Of a DNA stretch of 64,000 nucleotides, positions 5,010-64,000 are shown piece by piece. A program made the position numbers and the translations under genes. The notes below the pieces were generated by a model. That model worked only from the letters and a program-made list of their open reading frames with translations. It was not told the DNA's origin and did not search any database. Every line of letters begins with the position of its first letter. Within the stretch, counting starts at the first letter, position 1. This stretch comes from an uncultured Candidatus Saccharibacteria bacterium (lineage in GTDB: Bacteria; Patescibacteriota; Minisyncoccia; Phycocordibacterales; GWA1-40-21): assembly GCA_964613715.1 (NCBI GenBank), contig CAZTJK010000003.1, forward strand, positions 7,322-71,321, in the 5' to 3' direction.

Positions 5010-7175
5010 ATGAAACGAGATTATCCATTAGAAAAAGTACGCAATTTCGGTATTATCGCCCATATCGACGCAGGCAAGACGACGGTGTCGGAGCGCATTC
5101 TCTTCTATACCGGTTCGCAGCATAAGATCGGCGAAGTGCATGAAGGTGCGACGACGACCGACTGGATGGAACAGGAACGCGAGCGCGGCATTACGATCAC
5201 GTCGGCTGCCATCACCTGCTTCTGGAACCCGTCGTACATGCCGAAGGAGGACATTTCGAAAAAAGTCCGATTCAATATCATCGACACGCCGGGACACATC
5301 GACTTCACCGCAGAGGTGAAGCGCTCTCTTCGCGTGCTCGACGGCGCAGTCGTCGTGTTCGACGGCGTTGCCGGCGTGGAACCGCAGTCCGAGACCAACT
5401 GGCGCTATGCCGATGAAGGCAAAGTGCCGCGCATCTGTCTGATTAATAAATTGGACCGCACGGGCGGCTCATTCGAGCGCTCGTACCAGTCCATTCTCGA
5501 ACGCTTGACCAAAAATGCAGTAAGAATGCAATTGCCGATCGGCGCAGAATCCGATTTCAAGGGTCTCGTCGACCTGATGAAGATGAAAGCGTATTACTTC
5601 GAAGGCTCGATGGGCGAGAAAATCGTCGAGGGGGAAATTCCTGCCGAGATGATGGATGATGCAAAGAAATACCGCATCGAGCTCGTGGAGAAGATTGCCG
5701 GTGAGGATGAGAAGCTCATGACTGAATACCTCGAAGGCAAGGAGATTCCGCTCGCTGATTTGAAAGCAGCGCTCCGCAAGGCGACGATCGCAAACACCAT
5801 CGTACCGGTCTTTACCGGTTCTGCACTCAAGAACAAGGGCGTGCAGCTTACACTCGACGCCGTTGTCGACTATCTGCCATCTCCGCTCGATATTCCTCCA
5901 GTCAAAGGCGTGAACCCGAAGAATGGGGAAGAAATCGTCCGCCATGCATCCGATGCCGAGCCGTTCTGCGCCCTTGCATTCAAGCTCCAGAATGACCCGT
6001 TCGTAGGCCAGCTGACGTACTTCCGCGTATACTCAGGCAGCATCAGTGCCGGTACGTATATTTATAATTCAACGACGGGCGACCGTGAGCGCCTTGGCCG
6101 CATCGTGCGCATGCACGCAAACGATCGCGAAGACGTGGAAACCGTCTTTGCCGGAGAAATCGCGGCAGCCGTAGGACTCAAGAGCGCGAAGACCTCGCAT
6201 ACCTTCTGTGATGAAGCGAATCCGATCATTCTCGACCAGATCGTCTTCCCAGAGCCGGTCATTTCGCTCAGAATCGAGCCGAAGACGAAGGCTGACCAGG
6301 AAAAGATGGGCCTCGCGCTCAAGAAATTGTCCGACGAGGATCCGACATTCAAGATTAAGTCTGATTCTGAGACTGGCGAGACCGTCATGATGGGTATGGG
6401 CGAACTCCATTTGGAAATTCTCGTCGATCGCATGAAGCGCGAATTCAATGTGGAAGCGAATATCGGCAAGCCACAGGTCGCTTACAAGGAAACCATTACG
6501 GGCGAAGCAGAGAAGGAAGAGAAATACATCAAACAGACAGGCGGCAAGGGCCAATACGGCCATGTGCTCATCAAGATCAAGCCAATGGAGAAGCTTGAAG
6601 AGGGAGCCAAGATCCCGAAGAACGTCAAGCGCTACGACGAGTTCGAGTTCATCGACTCGATCAAGGGCGGCGTCATCCCGCAGGAATTCATCCCAGCCGT
6701 TGAAAAGGGCGTTCGCGAAGCAATGGAGCGCGGTATTGTTGCCGGCTACAAGATGGTGAATGTCTCGTGCGAACTGACATTCGGTTCCTATCACGATGTC
6801 GACTCGTCGGAAATTGCCTACAAGATCGCCGCGTCCCAGGCATTTCAGGATGCTGCGAAGCGCGCGCGGCCGGTCATTCTCGAGCCGATCATGAAAGTGG
6901 AAGTCGTCACCCCGGAGAAATTCATGGGCGATGTGTCAGGATCAATCAATTCACGCCGCGGACAGATCACGGAAATGTTTGATCGCGGTATGAACAAGGT
7001 CATCCGCGCGAACGTACCGCTCGCCGAAATGTTCGGCTACGTCACGACACTCCGCTCGATTTCCGAGGGTCGCGCATCATCAACCATGGAATTCGGCCAG
7101 TACGAGATCGTGCCGCCGAATGTGGCCAAATCGATCATCGAGGCTCGCGGGGTTACCTCCCAGCGCGTTTCGTAA
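5010..7175 (+). CDS. fusA: elongation factor G
   Basis: [10 protein letters not shown]-domain motifs, 721 aa, EF-G family throughout. Confidence 0.97.
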
Positions 7176-7192
7176 GAGACGCTCAATGCAGA

Positions 7193-7229
7193 AAACAGCC
7201 GGCCGCACAAAGCGCGGCCGGCTGTTTTC
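7193..7229 (+). terminator. rho-independent terminator after fusA
   Basis: aaacagccggccgcacaaagcgcggccggctgttttc. Confidence 0.6.
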
Positions 7230-8682: not shown

Positions 8683-9078
8683 ATGGAAAAAACAGCAGCA
8701 AAAAAGAATACAGCAAAGACCGCTGCGGCATCCAAAGTAAAAATGCCGAAAATGCCGGCAAAAGCCGACGCAACTTCGATCTTGCGCATCCGCGTCCGCG
8801 CGTATGATTCCAAGATCCTTGATGCGTCTGTAAAGCAGATCATTGAAACAGCGCTCCGCCACGACGCACAAGTCGTTGGTCCGGTGCCGCTTCCGACGGA
8901 AATCAAGAAATATACGGTCAACCGTGCGTCATTCGTCTACAAAAATGCGCGAGAGCAGTTTGAGATGAGGATACACCGCCGCTTGATCGATATTGTGAAT
9001 CCTTCGGCCAAAGTGATCGAGGCGCTCACCAACATGAGCTTGCCGTCCGGCGTGAACATTGATGTGAAGATGAACTAA
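8683..9078 (+). CDS. rpsJ: 30S ribosomal protein S10 with a Lys/Ala-rich N-terminal extension
   Basis: The core ILRIRVRAYDSKILD...RRLIDIVNPSAKVIEALT is uS10. About 30 extra N-terminal residues are present. Confidence 0.9.
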   Translation: MEKTAAKKNTAKTAAASKVKMPKMPAKADATSILRIRVRAYDSKILDASVKQIIETALRHDAQVVGPVPLPTEIKKYTVNRASFVYKNAREQFEMRIHRRLIDIVNPSAKVIEALTNMSLPSGVNIDVKMN

Positions 9079-9150
9079 GTGCGTATACCAGGGGCATGAT
9101 CCCGCACGCAAGAGCCTTGCGCGCGGGATCCTCTGCCATTAACGAAATCT

Positions 9151-9756
9151 ATGAAATTTACACTCGGGACAAAACAGAATATGACCCAGATCTTCGACGA
9201 GAACGGCACCGTCCACCCGGTGACCATCCTTGCCGCAGGACCTTTGACCGTCACCCAGGTCAAGACAAAAGATACCGACGGCTATGATGCCGTACAGGTC
9301 GCGTTCGGCATGCGCAAGGAGAAGAATATCTCCAAGGCAGTGCTCGGGCATCTGAAAGGCGTGCATGCGCGATTCATAAAGGAATTCCACACGGCGGATA
9401 CGTCGAAATTCAAAGTCGGCGATACGATTGACCTGTCTTCATTCACGATCGGCGACACGATCGAAGTGTCTGCCATCTCGAAAGGCAAGGGACATCAGTC
9501 GGTCATCAAGCGCCACGGTTTCCATGGCCAGCCACGAAGCCACGGCCAGAAGCATTCGGAAAACGCGCCGGGTTCCATCGGCGGCGGCTTGCGCAACAAG
9601 GTGCCGAAAGGCATGCGCATGGCTGGCCGCATGGGCGGGGAGCGCGTAACCGTGAAGAATTTGAAAGTCCTTGGCGTCGACAAGGAAGCGAATCAGATCC
9701 TCGTCGGCGGCGCAGTGCCGGGACGACGGGGAACGCTTGTCGAAGTGCGCGGCTAA
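9151..9756 (+). CDS. rplC: 50S ribosomal protein L3
   Basis: MKFTLGTKQNMTQIFDENG...FHGQPRSHGQKH matches uL3. Confidence 0.95.
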   Translation: MKFTLGTKQNMTQIFDENGTVHPVTILAAGPLTVTQVKTKDTDGYDAVQVAFGMRKEKNISKAVLGHLKGVHARFIKEFHTADTSKFKVGDTIDLSSFTIGDTIEVSAISKGKGHQSVIKRHGFHGQPRSHGQKHSENAPGSIGGGLRNKVPKGMRMAGRMGGERVTVKNLKVLGVDKEANQILVGGAVPGRRGTLVEVRG

Positions 9757-9767
9757 CCCTTACTACC

Positions 9768-10523
9768 ATGGAAAAAACTATGAAAAAAACAGAAACAGCG
9801 TCGGTGAAAAAGGTGAAAGCAGCGCCAAAGAAAGCGGCAGCAACATCAGCATCCGAAGCGCCGGTCTATAACCAGAGCGGCAAAGAAGTCGGCACCGTCA
9901 AATTGCCGGCAGCAGTGTTTGGCTTGTCATGGAATGCAGACTTGGTCCACCAGGTCGTCTATTCCATGCTCTCCGACCGACGCGTCACCTACGCGCATAC
10001 CAAAGGCCGCGGCGAAGTCCGCGGCGGCGGCAAGAAGCCCTGGAAGCAGAAAGGCACCGGCCGAGCACGCCACGGTTCTACCCGTTCGCCGATCTGGGTC
10101 GGCGGCGGCGTTGCGCATGGTCCGAATAATCTGAAAAATTATGAGCGCAAGATCAACAAGAAGATGAAGATCAAGGCGCTCTATACGATCCTTTCGAAGA
10201 AATTGAAGGATGGCGAAGTGCTCTTTGTCGATGCGCTTTCGATCGCAAAGCCGAAGACCGTAGACGCGCTTGCGATCCTTACCTCGCTTTCGAAGGTCAA
10301 GACCGCTTCCGATATTCTTTCGAAGAAAAAGAATAGCGCACTCATTGCGACCGCAGCAAAGAGCCCGGTCGTCGAAATGAGCTTTGCCAATATCGGCAAC
10401 GTCAAAGTCGACGAGCTTCGCAATATCAATCCGGTCGACCTCATGAATCTCAAATACGTCGTCATTGAGAATCCGGCCGAATCGGTGAAATTTATCGAGT
10501 CTAAGATGGCAAAGGCCAAATAA
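9768..10523 (+). CDS. rplD: 50S ribosomal protein L4 with an N-terminal extension
   Basis: [32 protein letters not shown] is the uL4 signature. Confidence 0.93.
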
Positions 10524-10528
10524 ATCCC

Positions 10529-10822
10529 ATGAACCACACGACAAAAACCGTGCTGCATGTCATCAAGCGCCCGCATATCACCGAAAAAGCCGGTATCAAG
10601 GCCGAGTCGCAGCATGTCTATACGTTCGAAGTCCTCAAGGGATCTTCAAAGAATGATGTTGCCAAGGCGATCACCGAAATCTACAAAGTCGTTCCGGTGA
10701 AAATCAATATGGTCAACCTTCCGGCAAAGAAAGTCGCACGGGGCGGCAAGGTCGGTCATCAGGGCTCTATCAAAAAGGCGCTTGTCTTCCTGAAGAAAGG
10801 GGATAAGATAGCGTTTATGTAA
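10529..10822 (+). CDS. rplW: 50S ribosomal protein L23
   Basis: The 97-aa sequence LHVIKRPHITEKA...VYTFEV matches uL23. Confidence 0.92.
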   Translation: MNHTTKTVLHVIKRPHITEKAGIKAESQHVYTFEVLKGSSKNDVAKAITEIYKVVPVKINMVNLPAKKVARGGKVGHQGSIKKALVFLKKGDKIAFM

Positions 10823-10832
10823 TTGTACTACC

Positions 10833-11684
10833 ATGAGAACCAACAGACCAACATCTCCGGGCCGCCGACACATGACATTTGTCACCTATCGCGGTGTGCT
10901 CACGGAATCAAAGCCGCTCAAAGCCCTCACGAAAGGCCAAAAAGGCCATTCCGGCCGCAATAACCGCGGACGCATCACCATGCGCCATCAGGGTGCCGGC
11001 CACAAGCAGGTATACCGCTTCGTGGACTTCATGTATGACAAAAAAGATATTCCAGCAACTGTGATGTCTGTGGAATACGATCCGTACCGCACCGGTTTCA
11101 TCGGCCTCGTAAACTATGCCGATGGCGAGAAGCGCTATACGCTCTTGCCGAAGGGTGTGAAGGCGGGCGACATGTTCCTGGTGTCCGAAAAGGCGGAGCT
11201 CAAGCCGGGCAACCGTATGCCACTCAAGAATATTCCGGTCGGTACCTTCGTGTATAACATCGAGATCAAAGTCGGCGGCGGTGCAAAGCTCGTCCGCTCG
11301 GCAGGATCATTCGCACAGATCGTCGCAAACGATGCAGGCTACGTGCATATCAAGATGCCATCGACCGAAGTCCGTAAGGTTCCGGAAAATGCATGGGCAT
11401 CGATCGGCAATGTTTCAAATGACGAGAACTGGCTCGTGAATATCGGCAAGGCAGGTCGTAGCCGCTGGATGGGTATTCGCCCGACGGTGCGCGGCTCGGT
11501 CATGAACCCGATGGATCACCCGTACGGCGGCGGCGAAGGCAAACAGGGCCGCGGCATGCGCTTTGCCAAGACCAAATGGGGTAAGCATGTCGGCAAAGGC
11601 CAGAAGTCGAGAACCCCGAAAAAGTACTCGAATTATCTGATCGTGAGCCGCAGAAAAGTAGGGAAGGCAAAGGACAATAAATAA
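10833..11684 (+). CDS. rplB: 50S ribosomal protein L2
   Basis: GRNNRGRITMRHQGAGHKQVYRF...MNPMDHPYGGGEGK matches uL2. Confidence 0.95.
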   Translation: MRTNRPTSPGRRHMTFVTYRGVLTESKPLKALTKGQKGHSGRNNRGRITMRHQGAGHKQVYRFVDFMYDKKDIPATVMSVEYDPYRTGFIGLVNYADGEKRYTLLPKGVKAGDMFLVSEKAELKPGNRMPLKNIPVGTFVYNIEIKVGGGAKLVRSAGSFAQIVANDAGYVHIKMPSTEVRKVPENAWASIGNVSNDENWLVNIGKAGRSRWMGIRPTVRGSVMNPMDHPYGGGEGKQGRGMRFAKTKWGKHVGKGQKSRTPKKYSNYLIVSRRKVGKAKDNK

Positions 11685-11696
11685 GTTTCAAATCTA

Positions 11697-11728
11697 AAGC
11701 GGCGCCTTACGGCGCCGCTTTACTTTTC
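11697..11728 (+). terminator. rho-independent terminator after rplB
   Basis: aaagcggcgccttacggcgccgctttacttttcc. It ends the S10 operon after L2. Confidence 0.6.
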
Positions 11729-11737
11729 CTGATTTTC

Positions 11738-11845
11738 TGCTACACTGCTTGCATAAGGCCAAAGACAACCGGCGGCATATGCAGAAGTCCGGTCGAGGTC
11801 CAAACGACACTCTCTGTCGGCCTTATCGGGTCGATTTTTTTATTT
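11738..11845 (+). promoter_or_regulatory. rplJ leader: an extended -10 (TGcTACACT) followed by a long-range helix and a U-tract (candidate L10-L12 autoregulatory attenuator)
   Basis: ataaggcc (11753-11760) pairs with ggccttat (11819-11826). The run tttttttatttc at 11834-11845 sits just before the rplJ RBS. Confidence 0.35.
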
Positions 11846-11866
11846 CAAAAATAAAAAGGAACAAGA

Positions 11867-12358
11867 ATGGCAATTACAAAAGAAAAGAAGAAAGAACTGG
11901 TAGCGGAAATCACAAAGGCACTCGCAGGCTCGAAGTCTGCAGTCTTTGTGAATTTCCACACGCTCAATGTCACGGACGAGCAGGCGATGCGCCGCGCTCT
12001 TCGTAAAGAAGGCGTCGGCTATTTGGTGGTGAGAAAAACGCTTGCCAAGCTCGCGCTTGCGGACGCAGGCATTGCTGGCACCATGCCGGAATTCGCCGGT
12101 GAGCTCGCACTTGTCTACGGCGATGATCTGACTGCTCCGGCGCGCGAATTCTACACGTTCCAGAAGAAATACAACGGCAATGTCAAAATTGTCGGTGGCA
12201 TCTTCGATGGAAAGTACATGAATATCGCGGAAATGACCGGTATCGCAGCCATCCCGTCCCAGCAGACCTTGTACGCACAGTTCGTCAATCTCATCAATTC
12301 CCCGATCCAGCGTTTCGCGGTCGTGCTTGATCAGATTGCAAAGACGAAGACAGTATAA
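11867..12358 (+). CDS. rplJ: 50S ribosomal protein L10
   Basis: [19 protein letters not shown]...[10 protein letters not shown] matches uL10. Confidence 0.9.
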
Positions 12359-12384
12359 TTTATCAACCTACACATAGAACAATC

Positions 12385-12780
12385 ATGGAAGAAAAGAAAG
12401 CAGTTGTGATTCCGGCGAAATTCGAAAAGCTTGTCGCCGAAATCGAAAAAATGTCAGTGATCGACCTCCACGAGCTCGTCAAAACGCTCGAGGAAAAGTT
12501 TGGCGTATCCGCAGCAGCAGTCGCAGTCGCGGGTCCTGCAGCAGGTGCAGCAGCGGCAGCGGAAGAGAAGACGGCCTTTACCGTCGAGCTCACCGATGCT
12601 GGCGCGCAGAAGATCGCCGTCATCAAGGTGGTCAAGGAAGCTCTCGCGCTCGGTCTTGCCGAAGCAAAGGGCATGGTAGATGCGGCTCCGAAGGTCCTCA
12701 AAGCGGACATGAAGAAGGAAGACGCGGAAAAGCTCAAAAAAGATATCGAAGCAGCGGGCGGAAAAGTTACCCTCAAGTAA
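12385..12780 (+). CDS. rplL: 50S ribosomal protein L7/L12
   Basis: An Ala/Pro hinge [20 protein letters not shown] is followed by the C-terminal domain [21 protein letters not shown]. Confidence 0.95.
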
Positions 12781-12800
12781 TAATTCGGCTCCTCAATAAG

Positions 12801-12838
12801 AAAAGGCGGTTTTTGCGAAGCAAAAACCGCCTTTTCTT
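12801..12838 (+). terminator. rho-independent terminator after rplL
   Basis: aaaaggcggtttttgcgaagcaaaaaccgcctttt. Confidence 0.6.
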
Positions 12839-12853
12839 ATGCGTCGTTTGCGG

Positions 12854-12859
12854 TATAAT
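12854..12859 (+). promoter_or_regulatory. -10 TATAAT 7 nt upstream of the ATG at 12867 (leaderless)
   Basis: cggTATAATgtgccccATG. Confidence 0.35.
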
Positions 12860-12866
12860 GTGCCCC

Positions 12867-13484
12867 ATGGAAATTTTGTCCAAGCTTTTCGGTAGCACGG
12901 CGCGGGTGAAGATCATGCGTCTATTTCTGTTCAATCCTGCTGATGCGTTCGATATGGATATGGTTGCCGAGAAATCCCATGTCGATGCCAAGACGGCGAA
13001 GCGCGAATGCGCGCTGCTTGCCCAAGCCGGTATGATCCGTCCGAAGGCATTTTTCAAGCTTACGACCCGCATGGTGCGAGGAAAGAGAGTCGAAAAGCGC
13101 CTAAAAGCGAAGGGCTATGAGCTCAATGGCCATTTCTCATATGTTGCCGGGCTCAAGCATCTCCTGATCAGCACGAAAACGCTCGAAGCGGGGGAGATTC
13201 TGAACCGGCTATCGAAAACCGGCAAATTGAAGCTGGTCATCATCGCCGGGATTTTCACGCGGGAAAAGGACAGCCGCCTCGATATCCTTATCGTCGGGGA
13301 CAATCTCAAGAAATCCGCCCTGGCGAGCGTCATCAAATCCATCGAAGCGGAGCTTGGCAAAGAGCTCCTCTACGCCTATTTCGAGACCAAGGACTTCCAA
13401 TACCGCCTCAGCATGTATGACAAGCTCGTAAAGGACGTACTCGATTATCCTCACGAGGTGCTCCTTGACCGGATGAGCCAATAA
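12867..13484 (+). CDS. winged-helix DNA-binding domain protein, hypothetical
   Basis: The N-terminal wHTH-like segment reads LFGSTARVKIMRLFLFNP...ECALLAQAGMI. The start at 12867 (MEIL) is preferred because the track start overlaps the rplL terminator. Confidence 0.45.
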   Translation: MEILSKLFGSTARVKIMRLFLFNPADAFDMDMVAEKSHVDAKTAKRECALLAQAGMIRPKAFFKLTTRMVRGKRVEKRLKAKGYELNGHFSYVAGLKHLLISTKTLEAGEILNRLSKTGKLKLVIIAGIFTREKDSRLDILIVGDNLKKSALASVIKSIEAELGKELLYAYFETKDFQYRLSMYDKLVKDVLDYPHEVLLDRMSQ

Positions 13485-21637: not shown

Positions 21638-21816
21638 CACGAATAAATTTCCTGACAGAAATTTTTCGCGACCCCGGCTCGCTATTTTTGCCTTTGCTTC
21701 GTAAAACAAAAATAAAGCTGCGCCCGTTCGATTCCGACGCACGCAAAGCAGTTTGCGTGCTCCTGAATCTTACTTATAAAAATAGCCCGACACGAAGTCG
21801 GGCTATTTTTATATTG

Positions 21817-22219
21817 TGGAGATGGGCGGAATCGAACCGCCGTGCAAATGATTGTTACCGATGATTCTACAAAGTCTAGTCGAATTTTTTCGCCGAAGCG
21901 AATTTAAGTGGAAAGGCTATAAGACGACAAAATACCTTCCTGCCGATTCTCTACAGTTCATATCGCGTCGAGAATCCGCGACATATACTCTGAATTATAT
22001 TCCACCCCGGTCCGAGTAATCAGATGTGCTCGGGCGGGACGTCGCTTAGGCTATTGCGTAAGCGAAGGACGCGTTCGAAACTCCGAAATACGGAGAGACG
22101 AGAGACGCGACCTTGCGAGAAATGCTGTTTGCATTTGTCATCCTGACGGTTAAGGAGTGTACAGGGTGCTCCACTTTGCTCATGCGGGAACGGATCAGTT
22201 GTCTAGGCCGATCATCCCC
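21817..22219 (-). ncRNA. ssrA: tmRNA (SsrA)
   Basis: The 5' end GGGGATGATCGGCCTAGAC pairs with the 3' end ...GGTTCGATTCCGCCCATCTCCA (tRNA-like T-arm and acceptor). An internal tag ORF reads ...ANSISRKVASLVSPYFGVSNASFAYAIA* (stop at 22046). smpB sits immediately upstream and a terminator immediately downstream. Confidence 0.85.
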
Positions 22220-25310: not shown

Positions 25311-25360
25311 CGTACCCAAAAGAAAAATGCGGAGCAGTCCGCATTTTTCTTTTGGGTACG
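25311..25360. repeat. long perfect palindrome (22-23-bp arms, 5-nt loop) acting as a bidirectional terminator. Its right arm includes the 3' end of tRNA-Ile.
   Basis: cgtacccaaaagaaaaatgcgga-gcagt-ccgcatttttcttttgggtacg. Confidence 0.6.
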
Positions 25361-25430
25361 CCCGCCTGGATTCGAACCAGGGACCACGAAGGTATAAGCT
25401 TCGCGCTCTAACCAGCTGAGCTACGGGCGT
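25357..25430 (-). tRNA. tRNA-Ile (anticodon UAU)
   Basis: Manual fold: acceptor acgcccg/cgggcgt, D-arm gctc-agctggtta-gagc, anticodon arm cgaag-cTTATAc-cttcg, T-arm cctgg-ttcgaat-ccagg. 74 nt. The 1-72 pair is A-U and CCA is not cleanly encoded. Confidence 0.75.
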
Positions 25431-25549
25431 ATGCGCCTATGCTATAGCAAAACGAGCTTCGCGGCAATTCATTTTCTTGCTGCAAGCGGGCCCGCATGCT
25501 AGGCTCAAAAAAGAAGCAGTCACAATCCTGAAAAAGAAAGGAGCCGGGC

Positions 25550-30200: not shown

Positions 30201-30455
30201 TCATTTTTTCTTGTCCTTCCAGTTCCACCACTTCAGCTTCTCGACATCACGCCCACCTTCGGCATAGTACACTGCCGTGCGAAATACATATAAGAGACAG
30301 CGGTCTTGCACCAGACCTGCGAATTTATTCGAGGCATCAAAGAGCTTTTCCGGATCTTTACCAGCGAGGTCTTTTACTTCCTGGATGCCGATTTCTTCCA
30401 AATCTTTCGCGATCGATTCCCCGACGCCCGGGATGATAGTAAGAGGAGATTTCAT
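30201..30455 (-). CDS. helix-hairpin-helix domain protein
   Basis: 84 aa. TIIPGVGESIAKDLEEIGIQEVKDLAGK is HhH-like. Confidence 0.55.
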   Translation of the reverse strand: MKSPLTIIPGVGESIAKDLEEIGIQEVKDLAGKDPEKLFDASNKFAGLVQDRCLLYVFRTAVYYAEGGRDVEKLKWWNWKDKKK

Positions 30456-30683
30456 TGTGCGGGGGCTCGTGAACGACGTTAGAAACGCAGTAATAAATTC
30501 CGACCAAAACTACTCCTTAAATATACCTGAAATTTCAGAAATGAAAAATTCGGATAGCACGCCTGAAATTATACCGGTCATAACCGATACAGACCAAGAC
30601 TCCTGAAGTTATCATCTTTTGTAACTTTCCTATAGAACTTATACACACCTAAACGCATTAGATTTAGGGTAAGTACAAACTAT

Positions 30684-30863
30684 ATGGAAATCTCAAAAGA
30701 AGGGATCGAGGAGTTTAAGCAAGCTCACTTGGAGGTATATGGGTATGAAATATCGGATGAGGAAGCGAGGGAGATAGCCCAGAGACTTGTCGGATTACTT
30801 TTATTGGTAGAAAGGCCGTTACCAGAAGACGTGGAACTAGAAAAAGATGAGGATGATTTTTAA
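30684..30863 (+). CDS. small acidic hypothetical protein (59 aa)
   Basis: ORF MEISKEGIEEFKQAHLEVYGYEISDEEAREIAQRLVGLLLLVERPLPEDVELEKDEDDF, which falls below the 60-aa track cut-off. It is speculative. Confidence 0.2.
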   Translation: MEISKEGIEEFKQAHLEVYGYEISDEEAREIAQRLVGLLLLVERPLPEDVELEKDEDDF

Positions 30864-30893
30864 TAATAAAGGATTGGATACGAGTTCACCACC

Positions 30894-31328
30894 TTAAGAA
30901 ATATCACGAGCAGGGCACACTAAAATATTTTTGCCTACCAGTTCCTTTTTAACTTTTCTGATCAACGCCGCATCATCAGAATAAACAGTTGTTTGAATTT
31001 GAAATAGTTGGGTTTGACGTTGATTTGCCGAGATTTCTGAAAACATAAGCAGTGTTGCCAGAATGGAAACGTCCCCAAATCCCGTCATGTTGTAAAAAGA
31101 ACGCCCACCATACTTGTTAAGAATCTGTCGGTAATGTTTAAGGTAAACTCCTTCATCAAAATCGTTAGTTTTGGAAATTGTAAATATTCGATCTGGAAGA
31201 TGTTTTTTATGAATTATTTCGGTCATCTCAACTTCATCCTCAACATCGGGTACCAAGAAATAATCATCTTGAAGAGTAAGATTATTTTTAAGGATATGTT
31301 GGACGGCGTTTGTATCAATGATGTTCAT
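30894..31328 (-). CDS. PIN-domain nuclease (VapC-like)
   Basis: MNIIDTNAVQHIL (the D-T-N motif). Later acidic residues are at PDVEDE, GFGDVSILA and SDDAALI. The start overlaps the upstream stop (ATGA). Confidence 0.65.
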   Translation of the reverse strand: MNIIDTNAVQHILKNNLTLQDDYFLVPDVEDEVEMTEIIHKKHLPDRIFTISKTNDFDEGVYLKHYRQILNKYGGRSFYNMTGFGDVSILATLLMFSEISANQRQTQLFQIQTTVYSDDAALIRKVKKELVGKNILVCPARDIS

Positions 31329-32521
31329 ATACCAAGCTCATTACGATATTTGCGATAGCCCTTTTTATTAGGTGCTCCCCATATCAAATATTGGGCCTGT
31401 GTACTTGGCAAAGTACCAGCTTGAATCGATCTGTTAATAGTTTGAAATGTAATTCGGCCGCAAAATTTTTCCACTGATGTTGAAATTCGTGGAGCGCGAC
31501 CTCGTCTTTTATTTTTTTTCGGAACATATGGTGGCGGTTTTAATGATTCGTATTCTTGCTTGGAGATAATTCCTCTCAGATGAAGAGTGGTAACCAGCGC
31601 CAGTGGAGAAACCTTTAGCTTGCTGGAAAGAGTATCGATTGTTGATCGGGTTACACGTTCCTTGCGTAGAGGTTCAACCTCTATTGATGGAATAAGGAGT
31701 TCTGACGTAATCGTGTGTAGTCTTGCCGGAACACCAGTTGCCTTCAACATTTTGGTTTTAAAATCCTTATCAAGAAAGTAGTTGTACTGCCCAAGACCAA
31801 TGATTGATAGGAGATAAACCAGTGTATAGATTTGCCGGCTTTCTACCTCATCCGGATTGACCTCGCTTGGAAGGAAAACAAAAGGTACCCGATCATCTTT
31901 AATGACAAAACCACTGGTGTTCCGGTAAACATCGCTTGATACGACCTGGTGCATCGGAAGAATCTTATGTGTCAGGACTCCTCGCGAGACAGTGATGTTT
32001 TTGCTTTCCACTTGACGAATAAGATATTCCAGCGCCTTTCCTTTTCCAGTAAAGCGCCACAATTGATTTCGATCAATTTCGAAATGAGAAAGGATCTGGT
32101 TCGCCGCTTGACTTGGTTGAAATCCATTTATTGACCCGCAGAATAGATTTTTAGGAAAAACAGTTGAAGTTGTCAGGAAATTTTGCTGACGGATTAACCT
32201 ATCGATGATGCGCTTCGAGGTGATATTCCCAGATCCTTTGCGTTTCGCAATAAGTTTGGGAGAGATTTTATATCGACGTTGCTTATCAATATGGTCGATT
32301 TGAATATCGAGATTAGCGGAAGTGAGAAAAAACATCTGCCAAGCAATTAGAATTATCTCGCTTTCTTTTTGGAGATCCGAAAAGTCGATTTGTCCATTGG
32401 TGAATGCAGTACTAAAAACAGGTCTGTTTATCAATCCTTCTTCGGGATAAATTTCAAGAATGCGTTTGACTACGCCATCTTCAATTTCTACGGAATTTGT
32501 ATCGTCGACTGTGACATACAT
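31325..32521 (-). CDS. hypothetical protein (398 aa) with a basic C-terminus, no recognisable domain
   Basis: Co-oriented and translationally coupled with the PIN gene. No P-loop or HExxH. The C-terminus KKNKRRGRAPRIS...KKGYRKYRNELGI is basic. Confidence 0.5.
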   Translation of the reverse strand: MYVTVDDTNSVEIEDGVVKRILEIYPEEGLINRPVFSTAFTNGQIDFSDLQKESEIILIAWQMFFLTSANLDIQIDHIDKQRRYKISPKLIAKRKGSGNITSKRIIDRLIRQQNFLTTSTVFPKNLFCGSINGFQPSQAANQILSHFEIDRNQLWRFTGKGKALEYLIRQVESKNITVSRGVLTHKILPMHQVVSSDVYRNTSGFVIKDDRVPFVFLPSEVNPDEVESRQIYTLVYLLSIIGLGQYNYFLDKDFKTKMLKATGVPARLHTITSELLIPSIEVEPLRKERVTRSTIDTLSSKLKVSPLALVTTLHLRGIISKQEYESLKPPPYVPKKNKRRGRAPRISTSVEKFCGRITFQTINRSIQAGTLPSTQAQYLIWGAPNKKGYRKYRNELGI

Positions 32522-32530
32522 AAAGTTGAC

Positions 32531-33352
32531 CTAATGAGTAGCTTCTTTTGGCGGATTGTATTCGATTTTTGGCGGTAGATCAGTCATTGCATAATGGACA
32601 AACTGCTGACCAAGTTCTGAAAGTTCATACAAATCTTCCTCATCGAAGGCTGATTCCATTGGTTTCGGGCCAGAGCGCGGCACCGGCGATCTTCTCTGGG
32701 GTGTTTTTCCGTAAAAATTACCTTCCGCATCTTTTTCCCGATGTTGTCGGATGATACCACCCATGTTGAGATCACGAATGAGGAGGCGATACAAACCAGC
32801 TTCTGGTGAGTCTTCACGCACTGGACCTTTGCCGATCTTCCGCCAAATCACTCCGCGACTTATTCCGTTTGTGTTATACACGGCAGCGATCACCTGGAAG
32901 TGTAATTCGGAGTAGGTCTTAAGCCAATCAATGAACAACCGTACCACATCGTCACTTGTAATGGTTGAAGCGGCAGCATTCGCAAGAATATTTCTGATAT
33001 AAACTCTTTTTTCCTCGCTTTCTGTCCCCGACCATTCGCGGAACGTTTTCTTCATAAGAGACTGATATTCCTTACTCTCGATCCTTTCGGCTACCTTGTT
33101 GTCATGCATATCAAGCCTTGCCATTATTTCGAGAATGGTTTGCTGTTTTTCTCGTAGTTCATCCTCAAGCATTTTTATCCAATGCTGAAAGAATTTGTTT
33201 ACTTTTTCCTGTTCGTTTTCAGACCAAGCCCCTGCCGCAGCTGAAAATAAGCCACCTGCGAATGGAACTGCGCCACCAATAACTTGCAATGCACCGCGCA
33301 CGATTTTCGGCGTTGGACCTTCTTCTGGTATATTTTTATTTTCTTCGGTCAT
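32531..33352 (-). CDS. hypothetical protein (273 aa) with a Gly/Ala-rich N-terminal hydrophobic segment
   Basis: The N-terminal segment is GALQVIGGAVPFAGGLFSAAAGAW. It overlaps the doc stop by 4 bp (ATGA) and sits 9 bp upstream of the next gene. Confidence 0.5.
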   Translation of the reverse strand: MTEENKNIPEEGPTPKIVRGALQVIGGAVPFAGGLFSAAAGAWSENEQEKVNKFFQHWIKMLEDELREKQQTILEIMARLDMHDNKVAERIESKEYQSLMKKTFREWSGTESEEKRVYIRNILANAAASTITSDDVVRLFIDWLKTYSELHFQVIAAVYNTNGISRGVIWRKIGKGPVREDSPEAGLYRLLIRDLNMGGIIRQHREKDAEGNFYGKTPQRRSPVPRSGPKPMESAFDEEDLYELSELGQQFVHYAMTDLPPKIEYNPPKEATH

Positions 33353-33810
33353 TGCGATACATCCTCAGATTGCATTGCGGCCATTTCTCTGTTATCAACC
33401 AAATGTTTTTCTATCGTTTCTGCTATTTGCTCCATGATGGTAATCCGTTCTGCTGGTTTGCTTCCTGCGATTCCCACCGCGAAATTATACAACTCTATCT
33501 TATTGATATTGAGCCATTTGCCATTTTTGTAGAGAAAATAGAATAGGCTCATGACCGCGATTCGCTTGTTGCCATTTTGGAATGGATGGTTCTTGATCAT
33601 GAGGTAAAAGAAGGTGCTGGCTTTACTCACAAGCCCTTGATATTGGTCTTTTTTGGCGAAACGGAAGAAGGGTGTTTTGATGCAACTTTCAAGCACGTTT
33701 GGAAACCGGGTACCAAAATCAGGGATCGGCTCATCCCAATTCATGAGCTTTTGAGCGAATGCAAAAGCAACGTATTCAATTTCATTGACCGTAATATTCT
33801 TTGTTCTCAT
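33349..33810 (-). CDS. doc: Doc/Fic-family toxin (death-on-curing-like)
   Basis: Fic motif HPFQNGNKRIAV (HxFx[D/N]GNKR). 153 aa. Overlaps the upstream HTH gene by 4 bp. Confidence 0.8.
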   Translation of the reverse strand: MRTKNITVNEIEYVAFAFAQKLMNWDEPIPDFGTRFPNVLESCIKTPFFRFAKKDQYQGLVSKASTFFYLMIKNHPFQNGNKRIAVMSLFYFLYKNGKWLNINKIELYNFAVGIAGSKPAERITIMEQIAETIEKHLVDNREMAAMQSEDVSQ

Positions 33811-34064
33811 TCCTTTCCGAGTTGCTTAAAGACATCCCCATACTCTATTAATGCCCGATCAATAGCTTTTTCTATTTCTTCTTTCTTTGTGGTTCCGATT
33901 GCCTTTCCAAGCAACTCTTCTAATGATTCATAGGGAATGACATAGTTACGTCCGACCTTCTGGGCTTTGATTTCTCCAGATTGGATCTTTTGGAAGACAG
34001 CTATACGGCTCAGATGCAGAATATTGGCTGCTTCTACGGTGGAATACATTGATTTTATAGTCAT
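33807..34064 (-). CDS. HTH (excisionase/MerR-type) DNA-binding protein, the putative antitoxin of Doc
   Basis: 85 aa. STVEAANILHLSRIAVFQKIQSGEIKAQKVGRNYVI is an HTH_17-like motif. It is the first gene of the operon. Confidence 0.7.
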   Translation of the reverse strand: MTIKSMYSTVEAANILHLSRIAVFQKIQSGEIKAQKVGRNYVIPYESLEELLGKAIGTTKKEEIEKAIDRALIEYGDVFKQLGKE

Positions 34065-34072
34065 ATTTGAAG

Positions 34073-34088
34073 CTTAACATATGTTAAG
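34073..34088. promoter_or_regulatory. perfect 16-bp palindrome cttaacatatgttaag, the candidate operator for the HTH antitoxin
   Basis: It lies 9-24 nt upstream of the antitoxin ATG on the minus strand. Confidence 0.45.
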
Positions 34089-34114
34089 TCTCAAGCAAGA
34101 CGATGAGCTAGCCA

Positions 34115-34160
34115 GTTCTAACATCGTCTCGGAAACAGTAACACTGGACTATGTTAGAAC
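34115..34160. repeat. 10-bp perfect inverted repeat gttctaacat...atgttagaac with a 26-bp spacer
   Basis: It sits between the island operon promoter and the tRNA-Ser 3' end and is followed by tttt on the plus strand. Confidence 0.4.
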
Positions 34161-34214
34161 TTTTGAAAATATCCTTGTGGATTTTGGTTTTTTTATTTGG
34201 GTAGGACTAAAAAG

Positions 34215-34303
34215 CGGAGACGGTGGGATTCGAACCCACGAGACCTTTAAGGGGTCTACCTCGTTAGCAGTGAGGTGCTTTCGGCCAGCTCAGCCACGTC
34301 TCC
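34215..34303 (-). tRNA. tRNA-Ser (anticodon GCU)
   Basis: Manual fold: GGAGACG...GCTGAGCTGGCCGAAAGC...cctca-CTGCTAA-cgagg, a long variable arm, T-arm cgtgg-gttcgaatc-ccacc, 3' cgtctcc. 89 nt. Confidence 0.85.
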
Positions 34304-57631: not shown

Positions 57632-57702
57632 TTGCGGGATCGTCTAATGGTAGGACACGCCCCTCTGGAGGGTGGTATCTTGGTTCGAGTCCAAGTCCCG
57701 CA
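57632..57702 (+). tRNA. tRNA-Gln (anticodon CUG)
   Basis: U1:A72 (tgcggga/tcccgca), D-arm gtc-taatggta-ggac, anticodon arm cgccc-cTCTGGa-gggtg, T-arm cttgg-ttcgagt-ccaag. 71 nt. Confidence 0.75.
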
Positions 57703-57846
57703 GCAAAAAGAACACAGCGATTTTTGCTGCGGGAAGCAAGCGCAGAGCTTGCGTCTTGGACGAGAAGACCTTGAGTATATCGCACGGAGCCTTTGCGAGT
57801 ACGATACGAAAGGTGTACAGTGCCTGTAAGGAACGAGATGCGAAGC

Positions 57847-57889: not shown

Positions 57890-58147
57890 ATGCTTGTTGT
57901 ATCGAAAAAAATTTCATTGCTTCTTCTCGGCATTACGGCTATCACCTGCTCCAGGATCTTGTTTCTTTGTATTAACGATCCTGAAGGCCCAAATCTGCTC
58001 GTCGTTCTAGGTATGGCAGCGATTCTCTACTTTTTGTCTTTGGCAGTATATGTATTCCTTCCCGCAACCGTCAGTCTCAAGAAGCTCCCATTGGCTATTT
58101 TGACACAGCTGCTCATAGCCGCCGGATTATATTTTTGTTTGCGCTGA
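57890..58147 (+). CDS. hypothetical small membrane protein
   Basis: 85 aa, 3 TM. AT-rich. Confidence 0.35.
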   Translation: MLVVSKKISLLLLGITAITCSRILFLCINDPEGPNLLVVLGMAAILYFLSLAVYVFLPATVSLKKLPLAILTQLLIAAGLYFCLR

Positions 58148-58268
58148 GAGTTCCAGCCTCGCACGAGCCGGAGTATTTTCTCATTTCTCATTCATGCATG
58201 CTATACTTGCATCCAGTTATAAGCTAAACATATTCATATGAATCCAGTCCTGCATTTCGAAAAAAGAT

Positions 58269-59111
58269 TTATCGCCATATTTTTCCGAATATCCTTTCAG
58301 ACAATGCTATAAGCTCAGAATCGTTTTTAATTGTTTCAAAAATAGGATCTTGATCATATTCTTTCCATCTTTCAAGGACTGACATTTTTAAGGCATCTTC
58401 TTTGAATTTCATCCCATCGAAAGAGCTGCCGCCTCCATAAGTCGAAACTTTTGGCCATTGAGCTACTTCTAGCTCGCAACCCAGCTTTTTTGAAAGCTCG
58501 AGCCTGTAATCCTCATCCAGGAACCATGTATTGAAGTTTATGGTAATTTTGTCAGGTAGATGATTTGTCATTCCCAAAAATTCTCGAGCGTGCGATTTCC
58601 AGACAGTTATCGTATGTGCATAAGCTGCGCTTTTTAGTTTGATATCCTGAAGCGTCAATTCTCGGCCGCTTTTTATCCTGCTTGCGATGAAATTATAAAT
58701 ATCTCGCAGAATGAGTATACATTTCCTATTTTTGTACGGAGCGAAGTGATTGGCAAAATCATCTACTGACATGGGTAAATGGGCAGGATCGAGATTCTCG
58801 AAATTCATCATTAATAGATTTTTTTCAGAATTGAAAATCCTTGTTTTTATATCCCTTGTTTCTGGAAGGAATTCCTTAAGCTTTTCCTTTACTAATCCAT
58901 GCTTGACCCAGCTATCGCTTATCTTAGAATAGTATTTTCTGTTATTATAGTGATATTGGACTCGGTTTTCGAATAGAGAGTCAGGCGATGAGAAATCGCA
59001 ATAATTGAAGAAGAATTTTTCCGGCCCAAATTGCTCGTAGATCCATTCCATGACCCCATGGTGGCCGCTACGGGACATCGCTATCACGAGGAATAAGTTT
59101 TTATTAGGCAT
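58269..59111 (-). CDS. sulfotransferase-like P-loop protein (tentative)
   Basis: 280 aa. The N-terminal LFLVIAMSRSGHHGVMEWI resembles a PAPS-binding 5'-PSB loop. AT-rich island gene. Confidence 0.35.
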   Translation of the reverse strand: MPNKNLFLVIAMSRSGHHGVMEWIYEQFGPEKFFFNYCDFSSPDSLFENRVQYHYNNRKYYSKISDSWVKHGLVKEKLKEFLPETRDIKTRIFNSEKNLLMMNFENLDPAHLPMSVDDFANHFAPYKNRKCILILRDIYNFIASRIKSGRELTLQDIKLKSAAYAHTITVWKSHAREFLGMTNHLPDKITINFNTWFLDEDYRLELSKKLGCELEVAQWPKVSTYGGGSSFDGMKFKEDALKMSVLERWKEYDQDPIFETIKNDSELIALSERIFGKIWR

Positions 59112-59126
59112 AGATTACTTATCAGT

Positions 59127-59618: not shown

Positions 59619-59680
59619 TTGACTAACCTTGACTTTTATAGTACTCTTCTTAGAGAAAACCTTTTTGAAAGGAGGGTGTC

Positions 59681-60214: not shown

Positions 60215-60238
60215 TACGCAAGTTCTTTTTTAAAAAAG

Positions 60239-63457: not shown

Positions 63458-63532
63458 TATGTCCGGTTCGTAGTTTAAGAGGCAAGTATGGCATGGTATA
63501 CTCACTTATGTATGTGTGCAAGAAGAAAAACT

Positions 63533-63967: not shown

Positions 63968-64000
63968 AATTATATGCATTGGAATCACGAGTATCATCCG

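What the first reader, a model, noticed from the sequence alone, without database searches (positions are those of the whole stretch)
30894..34064. Five-gene translationally coupled operon HTH-Doc-X273-X398-PIN: a candidate undescribed multi-component toxin or defence module
On the minus strand the genes run 33807-34064 (HTH), 33349-33810 (Doc, Fic motif HPFQNGNKRIA), 32531-33352 (273 aa), 31325-32521 (398 aa) and 30894-31328 (PIN with the DTN motif). The junctions overlap by 4 bp (ATGA) at three places and leave a 9-bp gap at the fourth, so the five are almost certainly one transcript. Two-gene Phd-like/Doc and VapB/VapC pairs are common. A Doc toxin and a PIN nuclease bracketing two large co-translated proteins with no recognisable motifs is not an arrangement I know. 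The 273-aa protein starts with a Gly/Ala-zipper hydrophobic segment (GALQVIGGAVPFAGGLFSAAAGAW). The 398-aa protein ends in a very basic tail that could bind nucleic acid. There is no dedicated small antitoxin for the PIN protein, so the unknown proteins may regulate or aim the two toxin activities. That would fit an abortive-infection style system.
Basis: partly seen in the sequence, partly recalled or inferred. Interest (0 to 1): 0.85.

Follow-up and report, generated by a model that had tools for sequence, protein, structure and literature searches.

The report
Three stacked toxin/defence modules, not one system
The five tightly packed genes are real, but they are three separate mobile modules sitting side by side in a small foreign-DNA island next to a tRNA gene: a Doc toxin with its regulator, a lone widespread gene of unknown function, and a conserved protease-like/nuclease pair.

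Summary
Five minus-strand ORFs at the stated coordinates have three ATGA overlaps and one 9-bp gap. They lie in a 3.8-kb low-GC island (about 0.41 against 0.52) abutting the 3' end of tRNA-Ser.

The interpretation as one five-component system does not hold. Relatives of the 398-aa protein are followed by the PIN-like gene in 18 of 18 loci where DNA continues, but never accompanied by HTH, Doc or the 273-aa gene (0 of 19). Relatives of the 273-aa protein, in 91 loci, never accompany any of the other four. DNA similarity to foreign loci starts and stops at the module borders.

- **HTH-Doc:** an ordinary Doc pair with an excisionase-type HTH partner.
- **X273:** a large, highly conserved orphan family with only a sub-threshold hint of Abi-alpha.

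The five-gene order occurs only in this organism. Interest is modest.

The parts
34214..34303 (-). tRNA-Ser (anticodon GCU). Its 3' end faces the island, so this is the likely insertion landmark.
   Evidence: ARAGORN and Rfam tRNA at 54.7 bits. GC drops immediately downstream of it.
34065..34213 (-). Leader and putative promoter/operator region of the cluster. It holds an inverted repeat at 34114-34128 / 34147-34161 and a palindrome at 34057-34104 that overlaps the HTH start codon.
   Evidence: Inverted repeats I19 (15-nt arms, 93% complementary) and I1. Their function is inferred only. The promoter scan is not above chance.
33807..34064 (-). Module 1a: small excisionase/MerR-type HTH protein of 85 aa, or 80 aa from the second ATG. 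It is the presumed antitoxin and autoregulator of Doc.
   Evidence: Pfam HTH_17 at 2.5e-7 and TIGR01764 at 2.7e-8. It overlaps Doc by 4 bp. No relative was found in any X273 or X398 locus.
33349..33810 (-). Module 1b: Doc-family (Fic-fold) toxin of 153 aa, with the Doc signature HPFQNGNKR.
   Evidence: Pfam Fic at 6.4e-9, TIGR01550 DOC_P1 at 3.7e-13 (above cutoff) and phrog_577 Doc-like toxin at 4.5e-20. It is 30-35% identical to annotated death-on-curing toxins on plasmids and phages.
32531..33352 (-). Module 2: X273, a stand-alone accessory gene of 273 aa. It has an N-terminal glycine-zipper hydrophobic segment, then a long helix, a helical domain and a possible winged-helix C-terminal half. 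Its function is unknown.
   Evidence: More than 2659 relatives at 70-85% identity across phyla and 612 clusters at 50% identity. Its neighbours are heterogeneous. It never accompanies the other four genes. DNA homology is confined to the ORF. One of ten members scanned singly gives a sub-threshold Abi_alpha hit (2 of 45 in the pooled scan). Weak linker-histone (winged-helix) profile hits have E 0.3-0.5.
31325..32521 (-). Module 3a: X398, an ImmA/IrrE (M78)-like pseudo-peptidase with an HTH-like region and a basic C-terminal helical domain. It is the conserved partner of the PIN-like gene and the presumed antitoxin/regulator.
30894..31328 (-). Module 3b: PIN-like putative nuclease of 144 aa, the presumed toxin of the X398 pair.
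   Evidence: It lies immediately downstream of X398 in 18 of 18 loci, mostly with a 4-bp overlap. E32, D86, S88 and D119 are invariant and D5 at least 90% conserved in 63 relatives. A non-significant, colinear two-motif match to the PIN nuclease Fcf1 has E 0.33. There is no Pfam or DUF4411 match.
30684..30863 (+). Convergent 59-aa ORF inside the low-GC island. Its function is unknown and it may not belong to any module.
   Evidence: ORF listed and called as a gene in L100 and L101. No family hit.
30350..34210 (.). Low-GC island of about 3.8 kb that carries the three modules. It has no integrase and no detectable att repeat.
   Evidence: GC is 0.35-0.45 inside and 0.50-0.55 outside. No tRNA-derived direct repeat was found.

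Best explanation
The cluster is a small horizontally acquired island next to tRNA-Ser. Three independent selfish or defence-type modules have been stacked in it head to tail and are probably read from one promoter upstream of the HTH gene.

**Module 1, HTH_17 plus Doc.** This is a type II toxin-antitoxin pair.
- Doc is a Fic-fold kinase. In the P1 paradigm it phosphorylates EF-Tu and stops translation (established knowledge).
- The small HTH protein is inferred to bind and neutralise Doc and to repress the promoter.

**Module 2, X273.** This is an autonomous single gene that travels alone between very different bacteria and some prophages.
- It is inferred to be a membrane-associated accessory or exclusion protein.
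- Its glycine-zipper N-terminus would insert into the membrane.
- Its helical, winged-helix-like C-terminal part would sense or bind a partner.
- How it acts was not shown here.

**Module 3, X398 plus the PIN-like protein.** This is a two-gene toxin-antitoxin-like or defence module. It belongs to the HTH/COG2856 (ImmA/IrrE) plus PIN-like class.
- The PIN-like protein is the inferred Mg-dependent RNase toxin.
- X398 is its obligate partner.
- Because the family has lost the HExxH zinc site, X398 cannot act as a protease switch. It is inferred to hold the nuclease inactive by direct binding, and to release it or be titrated away on a trigger such as phage infection or loss of the element.

**Shown here:** the modular independence, the homology assignments, the loss of the catalytic motif and the type I R-M context.

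**Inferred:** toxicity, neutralisation, the trigger and co-transcription.
For: **Independence of the modules**
- tblastn of all five proteins on 15 genome loci with X398 relatives gives PIN in 14 of 14 loci where DNA continues, and HTH, Doc and X273 in 0 of 15.
- Four further loci carry the pair only.
- 80 metagenome loci and 11 viral loci with X273 relatives carry none of the other four genes.
- blastn shows that similarity to X273 loci begins at the X273 start codon and ends before its stop. Similarity to X398-PIN loci begins at the X398 start and ends at the PIN stop.
- Clustering the neighbours of the pair finds only type I R-M subunits recurring: HsdR in 5 loci, a putative HsdS in 4 and HsdM in 3. 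HsdM and HsdR in L013 are confirmed against PDB.

**X398 identity**
- BFVD top hit: IrrE.
- The single plasmid tblastn hit is an ImmA/IrrE gene, and a DUF4411 gene follows it.
- In 10 of 10 plasmids a 278-419 aa ImmA/IrrE or XRE-fusion gene directly precedes DUF4411, mostly with a 4-bp overlap.
- hhalign A1 against A7: 97.9%, E 6e-13.
- The position aligned to HExxH reads YLLxI in 120 of 120 relatives.

**Literature**
- PIN-like domains co-transcribed with HTH and DUF955/COG2856 are predicted to be three-component TA systems. PIN-like genes have also been noted inside type I R-M operons (PMC5499597).

**Doc**
- Scores are above the cutoffs and the signature motif is present.

**X273**
- A huge family with heterogeneous neighbours.
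- In L107 it occupies a prophage position next to the terminase genes.

**Island**
- GC profile and adjacent tRNA.
Against: - No experiment or structure supports toxicity or neutralisation for any module.
- The PIN fold is not demonstrated. There is no Pfam or PDB hit, and hhalign against DUF4411 gives a probability below 1%. The only fold-level hint is a non-significant Fcf1 match.
- In L011 the X398 relative is split by a frameshift while the PIN gene is intact. That is unexpected if X398 is an essential antitoxin, unless it is an assembly error.
- No relatives of the HTH_17-Doc pair could be collected, so its autonomy is inferred from the Doc paradigm and from its absence in the other loci.
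- X273 often sits 30 bp or less downstream of a same-strand gene (about 37 of 68 loci). A small XRE gene recurs 2-3 genes upstream in 11 loci. A functional link between HTH-Doc and X273 therefore cannot be excluded.
- No integrase or att repeat defines the island.
Confidence: 0.78

Rival explanations
1. One reading: all five genes form one multi-component toxin or abortive-infection system, in which X273 and X398 regulate or aim both the Doc and PIN activities.
For: - The junctions are tight: three ATGA overlaps and one 9-bp gap.
- No internal terminator signal rises above chance.
- The same five-gene order is present in two contigs.
Against: - Those two contigs are from the same organism.
- Among 110 loci with relatives of X273 or X398, no combination beyond X398+PIN occurs.
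- DNA homology breaks exactly at the module borders.
- Tight junctions are common in this genome.
- X398 already has a defined family role as the partner of a PIN-like gene.
Confidence: 0.04
2. There are two units rather than three. HTH-Doc-X273 is one operon of a type 'small HTH regulator, then variable effector(s), then X273', with Doc filling the variable slot. X398-PIN is the second unit.
For: - X273 relatives lie 30 bp or less downstream of a same-strand gene from many different families in about 37 of 68 loci.
- In 11 loci a 65-72 aa XRE HTH gene lies 2-3 genes upstream, with variable genes in between.
- Doc and X273 overlap by ATGA here.
Against: - The rate of tight junctions (about 54%) is not far above the background seen in this window (about 37%).
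- The upstream genes include housekeeping-type proteins such as an alpha/beta hydrolase, a PLP enzyme, GyrA and histidine kinases.
- No X273 locus carries Doc or an HTH_17 gene.
- DNA similarity stops at the X273 start codon.
Confidence: 0.12
3. X398-PIN is not a toxin-antitoxin pair. It is instead an accessory of type I restriction-modification systems, for example a regulator or a back-up nuclease, and here it is an orphan remnant.
For: - An HsdR homologue is adjacent in 5 of 15 loci.
- In L010, L013 and L014 the pair sits between the putative hsdS gene and hsdR.
Against: - Ten of 15 loci and the window itself have no R-M genes nearby.
- Other copies lie next to recombinases and a PanA-type antitoxin.
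- The homologous ImmA-DUF4411 pairs on plasmids have no R-M context.
- Insertion of TA or Abi genes into type I R-M operons is a known defence-island pattern (PMC5499597).
Confidence: 0.1
4. The block is the decayed regulatory end of an integrative element at tRNA-Ser. Under this reading the excisionase-family HTH is a recombination directionality factor, the ImmA-like protein is an anti-repressor protease, and the genes are not defence or toxin modules.
For: - The island is low-GC and abuts the tRNA.
- The HTH matches excisionase models TIGR01764, phrog_2907 and phrog_2655.
- ImmA/IrrE proteins control induction of mobile elements (established knowledge).
- Some copies of the pair lie next to serine recombinases.
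Against: - There is no integrase, no att repeat and no repressor gene.
- The HTH overlaps a bona fide Doc toxin.
- The ImmA-like protein has no HExxH in any relative.
- It is always coupled to the PIN-like gene, including inside R-M operons.
Confidence: 0.06

Closest known systems
HTH / DUF955 (COG2856, ImmA/IrrE, Peptidase_M78) + PIN-like (DUF4411, COG2405, PIN_14/20/26) predicted three-component toxin-antitoxin modules (Matelska et al. 2017, PMC5499597)
   Same: - Gene order and sizes match: a partner of about 380-420 aa, then a PIN-like gene of about 145-165 aa, usually with a 4-bp overlap.
- X398 is homologous to the partner over 263 columns (hhalign 97.9%) and shares its fold.
- The downstream protein keeps four acidic residues in PIN order.
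- Both are found on mobile DNA and in defence contexts.
   Different: - The HExxH zinc site is replaced by YLLxI in the whole X398 family, so there is no protease activity.
- The N-terminal XRE HTH is degenerate.
- The 144-aa protein does not match the DUF4411 model or profile.
- The family is almost confined to Patescibacteria/CPR-type MAGs, going by the record titles.
- The class itself is only predicted. As far as the searched papers show, it has not been characterised experimentally.
Phd/Doc type II toxin-antitoxin system (phage P1)
   Same: - A Doc toxin with the HxFx[DN][AG]NKR motif and Fic fold, scoring above the family cutoffs.
- A small upstream gene overlaps it by 4 bp.
   Different: - The upstream protein is an HTH_17/excisionase-type protein, not Phd/YefM or AbrB-type. 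It shows no similarity to the antitoxin next to a Treponema Doc gene.
- Antitoxin function was not tested.
Protease-switch regulators ImmA/ImmR, IrrE(PprI)/DdrO and CapP/CapH
   Different: - These proteins work by metal-dependent cleavage of a repressor.
- X398 lacks the metal ligands, and no repressor gene is adjacent.
Abi-alpha (EF2833, Pfam PF14337/DUF4393), a single-gene prophage abortive-infection protein of Enterococcus (PMC6356687)
   Same: - Similar length: 272 against 273 aa.
- Both are stand-alone genes that occur in prophages and near other defence genes.
- One family member gives a partial Abi_alpha hit at E 2.4e-4.
   Different: - The hit scores 21.6 bits, below the cutoff of 29, and occurs in 2 of 45 members.
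- There is no PHROG or PADLOC support.
- The window protein itself gives no hit.
- Homology is a lead, not a result.
VapBC (PIN toxin plus small antitoxin)
   Same: A PIN-like acidic tetrad, an upstream overlapping partner gene, and the antitoxin-first gene order.
   Different: - The partner is a 398-aa multidomain pseudo-peptidase rather than a small DNA-binding antitoxin.
- There is no match to the PIN (PF01850) model.

Membership tests
Doc (death-on-curing) toxins, Fic fold | Match to the Fic/Doc family models above their curated cutoffs | tested here: met
   PF02661 at 37 bits (cutoff 24); TIGR01550 at 49.7 bits (cutoff 38.65); phrog_577 at 4.5e-20.
Doc (death-on-curing) toxins, Fic fold | Doc-type active-site motif HxFx[DN][AG]NKR | tested here: met
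   HPFQNGNKR is present in the translation. The motif definition comes from established knowledge.
Doc (death-on-curing) toxins, Fic fold | A cognate antitoxin that neutralises the toxin | not testable with these tools
   An overlapping upstream HTH_17 gene is present. Neutralisation is inferred only.
ImmA/IrrE (Peptidase_M78, COG2856) metallopeptidases | M78 fold or homology | tested here: met
ImmA/IrrE (Peptidase_M78, COG2856) metallopeptidases | HExxH zinc-binding catalytic motif | tested here: not met
   The aligned position reads Y-L-[LIV]-x-[VIL] in 120 of 120 relatives. X398 is therefore a pseudo-peptidase relative, not an active member.
ImmA/IrrE-DUF4411 two-gene modules | An ImmA-like gene immediately upstream of, and coupled to, a PIN-like gene | tested here: met
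   18 of 18 X398 loci. The reference pattern holds in 10 of 10 plasmids.
DUF4411 (PF14367) PIN-like proteins | Match to the family model or profile | tested here: not met
   No Pfam hit in 14 members. hhalign probability is below 1% with both small and large alignments.
PIN domain-like superfamily | Four conserved acidic residues in the order D...E...D...D | tested here: met
   E32, D86 and D119 are invariant and D5 is at least 90% conserved in 63 sequences.
PIN domain-like superfamily | PIN alpha/beta fold | tested here: inconclusive
The profile search against PDB gives only a non-significant, colinear two-motif match to Fcf1 (E 0.33).
Abi-alpha (PF14337) | Match to the family model above its gathering score | tested here: not met
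   The best hit is 21.6 bits against a cutoff of 29, in P0428; 2 of 45 members match and the window protein does not.
Abi-alpha (PF14337) | Abortive-infection phenotype (premature lysis) | not testable with these tools
   The phenotype is known only for EF2833 (PMC6356687).
   None of 110 foreign loci shows any combination other than X398+PIN. The five-gene order occurs only in the source organism.
Known defence systems in PADLOC-DB v2 | Match of X273, X398 or PIN to a system model | tested here: not met
   Only weak hits: X273 to PRTase_III-A at 7.8e-4, X398 to RmrA at 0.013, and none for PIN. Doc hits the candidate system PDC-S23 at 6e-17.

The most novel reading that the evidence does not exclude
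X273 may represent a very large, unannotated family of single-gene, membrane-acting exclusion or abortive-infection proteins. The family has at least 612 clusters at 50% identity and members 70-85% identical across unrelated phyla. Members have a glycine-zipper N-terminus and a winged-helix-like body, and the family is at most distantly related to Abi-alpha.

Separately, the X398-PIN pair may be a protease-dead, CPR-specialised offshoot of the ImmA-PIN modules, in which a pseudo-peptidase has become a direct sensor or antitoxin.

Here both would be expressed from one Doc-antitoxin-controlled promoter as a three-module mini defence island.
Probability: 0.3. Interest if true: 0.55.

Novelty: new variant of a known kind. 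Interest (0 to 1): 0.33.

Why it matters
The proposed five-component system would have been a new architecture, and the evidence says it is not one. Three smaller points remain.

1. **The X398-PIN pair.** It documents a family-wide loss of the catalytic zinc site in an ImmA/IrrE-type partner of a PIN-like toxin. That argues that in this branch the protease module works by binding rather than by cleavage. It is a concrete case for studying how these predicted, still uncharacterised three-component TA modules operate. It also adds to the very thin catalogue of toxin and defence genes in Patescibacteria.

2. **X273.** It is a large, strongly conserved and widely transferred family with no Pfam, PADLOC or PHROG model. 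It occurs in prophages and next to restriction and Shedu-type genes, which makes it a reasonable candidate for defence-gene screens.

3. **A cautionary example.** Overlapping start and stop codons between neighbouring genes in a compact genome do not show that the genes belong to one system.

Tried and rejected
- **att repeat.** I looked for a tRNA-derived direct repeat that would bound the island and found none; only chance-level short repeats appeared.
- **Promoter and terminator scan.** Counts equal the shuffled expectation.
- **X273 structure.** AlphaFold with 17 close homologues gave pLDDT 46.6, which is unusable, so no fold search was run on it. Both prediction jobs were then spent, so the PIN protein could not be modelled.
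- **AFDB50 fold library.** It was unavailable.
- **PIN against DUF4411.** hhalign was tried with a single sequence, with a 10-sequence profile, with a 117-sequence query alignment, and with relaxed and global settings. None gave support.
- **PIN and X398 profiles against PDB sequences.** Nothing significant.
- **X273 in sequence collections.** No match in 72,556 plasmids or 50,697 phage genomes, even at E of 1 or less. There was no PHROG family. The profile search against PDB gave only E 0.1-0.5 hits.
- **X398 and Doc in IMG/VR viral contigs.** None found.
- **Window PIN in plasmids at E of 10 or less.** None found.
- **Antitoxin comparison.** The window HTH shows no similarity to the small gene upstream of a Treponema Doc gene.
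- **X273 as a partner of its upstream gene.** I considered this and set it aside as unproven. The upstream genes belong to dozens of unrelated families, and the rate of tight junctions is close to the background in this genome.
- **Contigs ending just after X273.** I considered this as a sign of an element edge and did not use it, because most of those contigs are only 1-3 kb long.

Full report
**1. Observation**

The sequence shows ATGA start/stop overlaps at HTH/Doc, Doc/X273 and X398/PIN, and a 9-bp gap between X273 and X398. The quoted motifs are present:
- HPFQNGNKRIA in Doc;
- the Gly/Ala-rich hydrophobic stretch in X273, with a Kyte-Doolittle 19-residue maximum of 1.51 at residues 24-42;
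- MNIIDTN at the start of the 144-aa protein;
- the basic stretch near the C-terminus of X398.

HTH matches HTH_17 and the excisionase-family model TIGR01764. Doc matches Fic and TIGR01550 above their cutoffs.

The block is a low-GC island of about 30350-34210, with GC 0.35-0.45 against 0.50-0.55 in the flanks. It abuts the 3' end of tRNA-Ser(GCU) at 34214-34303. No integrase or att repeat is present.

Tight junctions are common in this genome. By crude ORF calls, 19 of 52 same-strand neighbour pairs are 15 bp or less apart or overlap by 4 bp. Promoter-like and terminator-like sites are not above chance. Co-transcription is therefore likely, but the packing says nothing about functional unity.

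**2. Is it one system?**

*X398.* It has 218 relatives, nearly all 396-403 aa. The named ones come from Parcubacteria, Paceibacterota and other Patescibacteria. In 15 loci from GTDB genomes I ran tblastn with all five window proteins.
- A PIN relative lies directly downstream of X398 in 14 of 14 loci where the DNA continues, mostly with a 4-bp overlap.
- HTH, Doc and X273 are absent from all 15.
- Four more loci, retrieved through a PIN relative, show the same pair and nothing else from the cluster.

*X273.* It has more than 2659 relatives at 70-85% identity, including sequences labelled Izemoplasmatales, Chitinivibrionales and Sulfurovum. The family has 612 clusters at 50% identity. In 80 metagenome loci and 11 IMG/VR loci, none of the other four genes is present.

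*Module borders.* At the DNA level, similarity between the window and the X273 loci begins at the X273 start codon and ends just before its stop. Similarity to the X398-PIN loci begins at the X398 start and ends at the PIN stop. The borders therefore fall in the Doc/X273 overlap and in the 9-bp gap.

*Uniqueness.* The five-gene order was recovered only in two short contigs from sequencing runs of what is evidently the same organism.

The exception is that X398 and PIN do belong together.

**3. The X398-PIN pair**

*Fold and homology of X398.*
- AlphaFold gave a good model (pLDDT 83, pTM 0.83).
- The top viral hit is an IrrE protein.
- Eight of 20 relatives give weak Peptidase_M78 hits.

*Link to DUF4411 modules.*
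- The single plasmid hit of X398 is a Gordonia ImmA/IrrE gene, which is followed by a DUF4411 gene.
- In all ten plasmids I opened, DUF4411 is directly preceded by a 278-419 aa gene annotated as ImmA/IrrE or as an XRE family regulator, mostly with a 4-bp overlap.
- The profile-profile comparison of the X398 family with these partners gives 97.9% probability and E 6e-13 over 263 columns.

*Loss of the catalytic site.* The invariant FTLxHELxH of the plasmid proteins aligns with YTLxYLLxI in X398. None of 120 relatives has His or Glu at these positions. X398 is therefore a catalytically dead relative of the ImmA partner.

*The 144-aa protein.*
- Its family of 147 proteins has no Pfam annotation.
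- E32, D86, S88 and D119 are invariant and D5 is nearly invariant. That is the acidic tetrad expected of PIN-like nucleases.
- It does not match DUF4411 by hmmscan or hhalign.
- The only fold-level hint is a non-significant, colinear match of its first and last motifs to the PIN nuclease Fcf1 (E 0.33).

*Literature and context.* Matelska et al. (PMC5499597) describe PIN-like domains (DUF4411, COG2405, PIN_14, PIN_20, PIN_26) co-transcribed with HTH and DUF955/COG2856 as predicted three-component TA systems. They also note PIN-like genes inside type I R-M operons. Consistent with that:
- Five of the 15 loci have an HsdR homologue adjacent to the pair.
- In L010, L013 and L014 the pair sits between the putative hsdS gene and hsdR. 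HsdM and HsdR in L013 are confirmed against PDB.
- Other copies lie next to serine recombinases and a PanA-type antitoxin.

*Proposed mechanism (inferred).* The PIN-like protein is the toxin or effector nuclease. X398 binds and silences it, and a trigger releases it. One observation sits badly with an essential antitoxin: in L011 the X398 relative is frameshifted while the PIN gene is intact. This may be an assembly error.

**4. HTH-Doc**

Doc is 30-35% identical to annotated death-on-curing toxins on plasmids and phages and carries the Doc signature. Its partner is an excisionase/MerR-type HTH rather than Phd, and it shows no similarity to the small gene upstream of a Treponema Doc gene.

My homologue searches were exhausted, so I could not collect relatives of this pair. 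Its autonomy is inferred from the Doc paradigm and from its absence in the other loci. An inverted repeat (34114-34128 / 34147-34161) and a palindrome over the start codon are candidate operators. Neither was tested.

**5. X273**

*Neighbours.* They are heterogeneous.
- The gene just upstream is on the same strand and within 30 bp in about 37 of 68 loci.
- Those upstream genes belong to many families: zinc-ribbon proteins, Shedu SduA_C, HsdS, AAA_15/21, an alpha/beta hydrolase, a PLP enzyme, an integrase, peptidase S24 and others.
- A small XRE gene recurs 2-3 genes upstream in 11 loci.
- No downstream partner is conserved.
- In L107 the gene sits directly upstream of terminase-like and portal-like ORFs of a prophage-like contig.

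*Structure and remote homology.*
- The AlphaFold model was poor (pLDDT 46.6).
- With a diverse 45-sequence alignment, two members give sub-threshold Abi_alpha hits. The one identified is P0428, with E 2.4e-4 and 21.6 bits against a cutoff of 29.
- The profile gives weak linker-histone (winged-helix) matches over residues 159-237 (E 0.3-0.5).
- PHROGs, PADLOC, plasmids and cultured phages give nothing.

Abi-alpha (EF2833, 272 aa) is a single-gene prophage Abi that causes premature lysis (PMC6356687). The resemblance is a lead only. My working reading is a stand-alone, membrane-associated accessory or exclusion gene. The alternative, that it is the conserved terminal gene of operons headed by a small HTH (here HTH-Doc-X273), is kept as a rival at about 0.12.

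**6. Verdict**

The island holds three independent modules stacked at a tRNA:
- a Doc pair with an unusual HTH partner;
- an orphan gene from a large unannotated family;
- a protease-dead variant of the ImmA/IrrE plus PIN-like module class.

This is a new variant of known kinds rather than a new kind of system. Interest is modest. It rests on the pseudo-peptidase twist and on the size, conservation and lack of annotation of the X273 family.

Noticed in passing
window 58000-64000 (tRNA-Gln at 57633-57704): A second low-GC block (0.39-0.43) begins right after tRNA-Gln. By eye its ORFs look like sugar or surface-polysaccharide genes: two glycosyltransferase-like ORFs, a Nudix-like ORF and a HAD-like ORF. 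It is probably another tRNA-flanked island.
   Followed up: no
window 21814-22219 (-) and 25353-25431 (-): A tmRNA gene (Rfam, 77 bits) and a tRNA-Ile with anticodon TAT.
   Followed up: no
L107 7953-8807, with 8850-13173 downstream: In a high-GC IMG/VR contig the X273 relative sits directly upstream of ORFs that look by eye like small terminase, large terminase and portal genes. That is a typical prophage accessory-gene slot.
   Followed up: partly
L017, L018, L029, L031, L032, L036, L038, L041, L045 and others, upstream of X273: A conserved 65-72 aa XRE (HTH_3) gene recurs 2-3 genes upstream of X273, with variable zinc-ribbon and other genes in between. The XRE gene and X273 appear to bracket a variable region.
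   Followed up: partly
L011 6001-7195: The X398 relative is split into two reading frames (tblastn segments 6001-6522 and 6503-7195) while the downstream PIN-like gene is intact. This is either a frameshift or an assembly error.
   Followed up: no
L096-L099 3338-8019: The X398-PIN pair lies between a large serine recombinase (Resolvase/Recombinase/Zn_ribbon_recom) and an HTH+SocA_Panacea (PanA-type) gene.
   Followed up: no
L010, L013, L014 (also L002, L006): In L010, L013 and L014 the X398-PIN pair is inserted between the putative hsdS gene and hsdR of type I restriction-modification operons; in L002 and L006 it lies next to hsdR.
   Followed up: yes
window 34057-34161: A 15-nt inverted repeat (34114-34128 / 34147-34161, 93% complementary) and a palindrome over the HTH start codon lie between tRNA-Ser and the first gene. 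They are candidate operator sites.
   Followed up: no
window 33349-33810: The best PADLOC match of the Doc protein is the C-terminal third of the candidate single-gene defence family PDC-S23 (E 6e-17, profile positions 217-325 of 327). That suggests Doc-domain proteins have already been flagged as defence candidates.
   Followed up: no
window 30684-30863 (+): A 59-aa acidic ORF lies convergent to the PIN gene, inside the low-GC island. It is called as a gene in the source contigs and has no family match.
   Followed up: no
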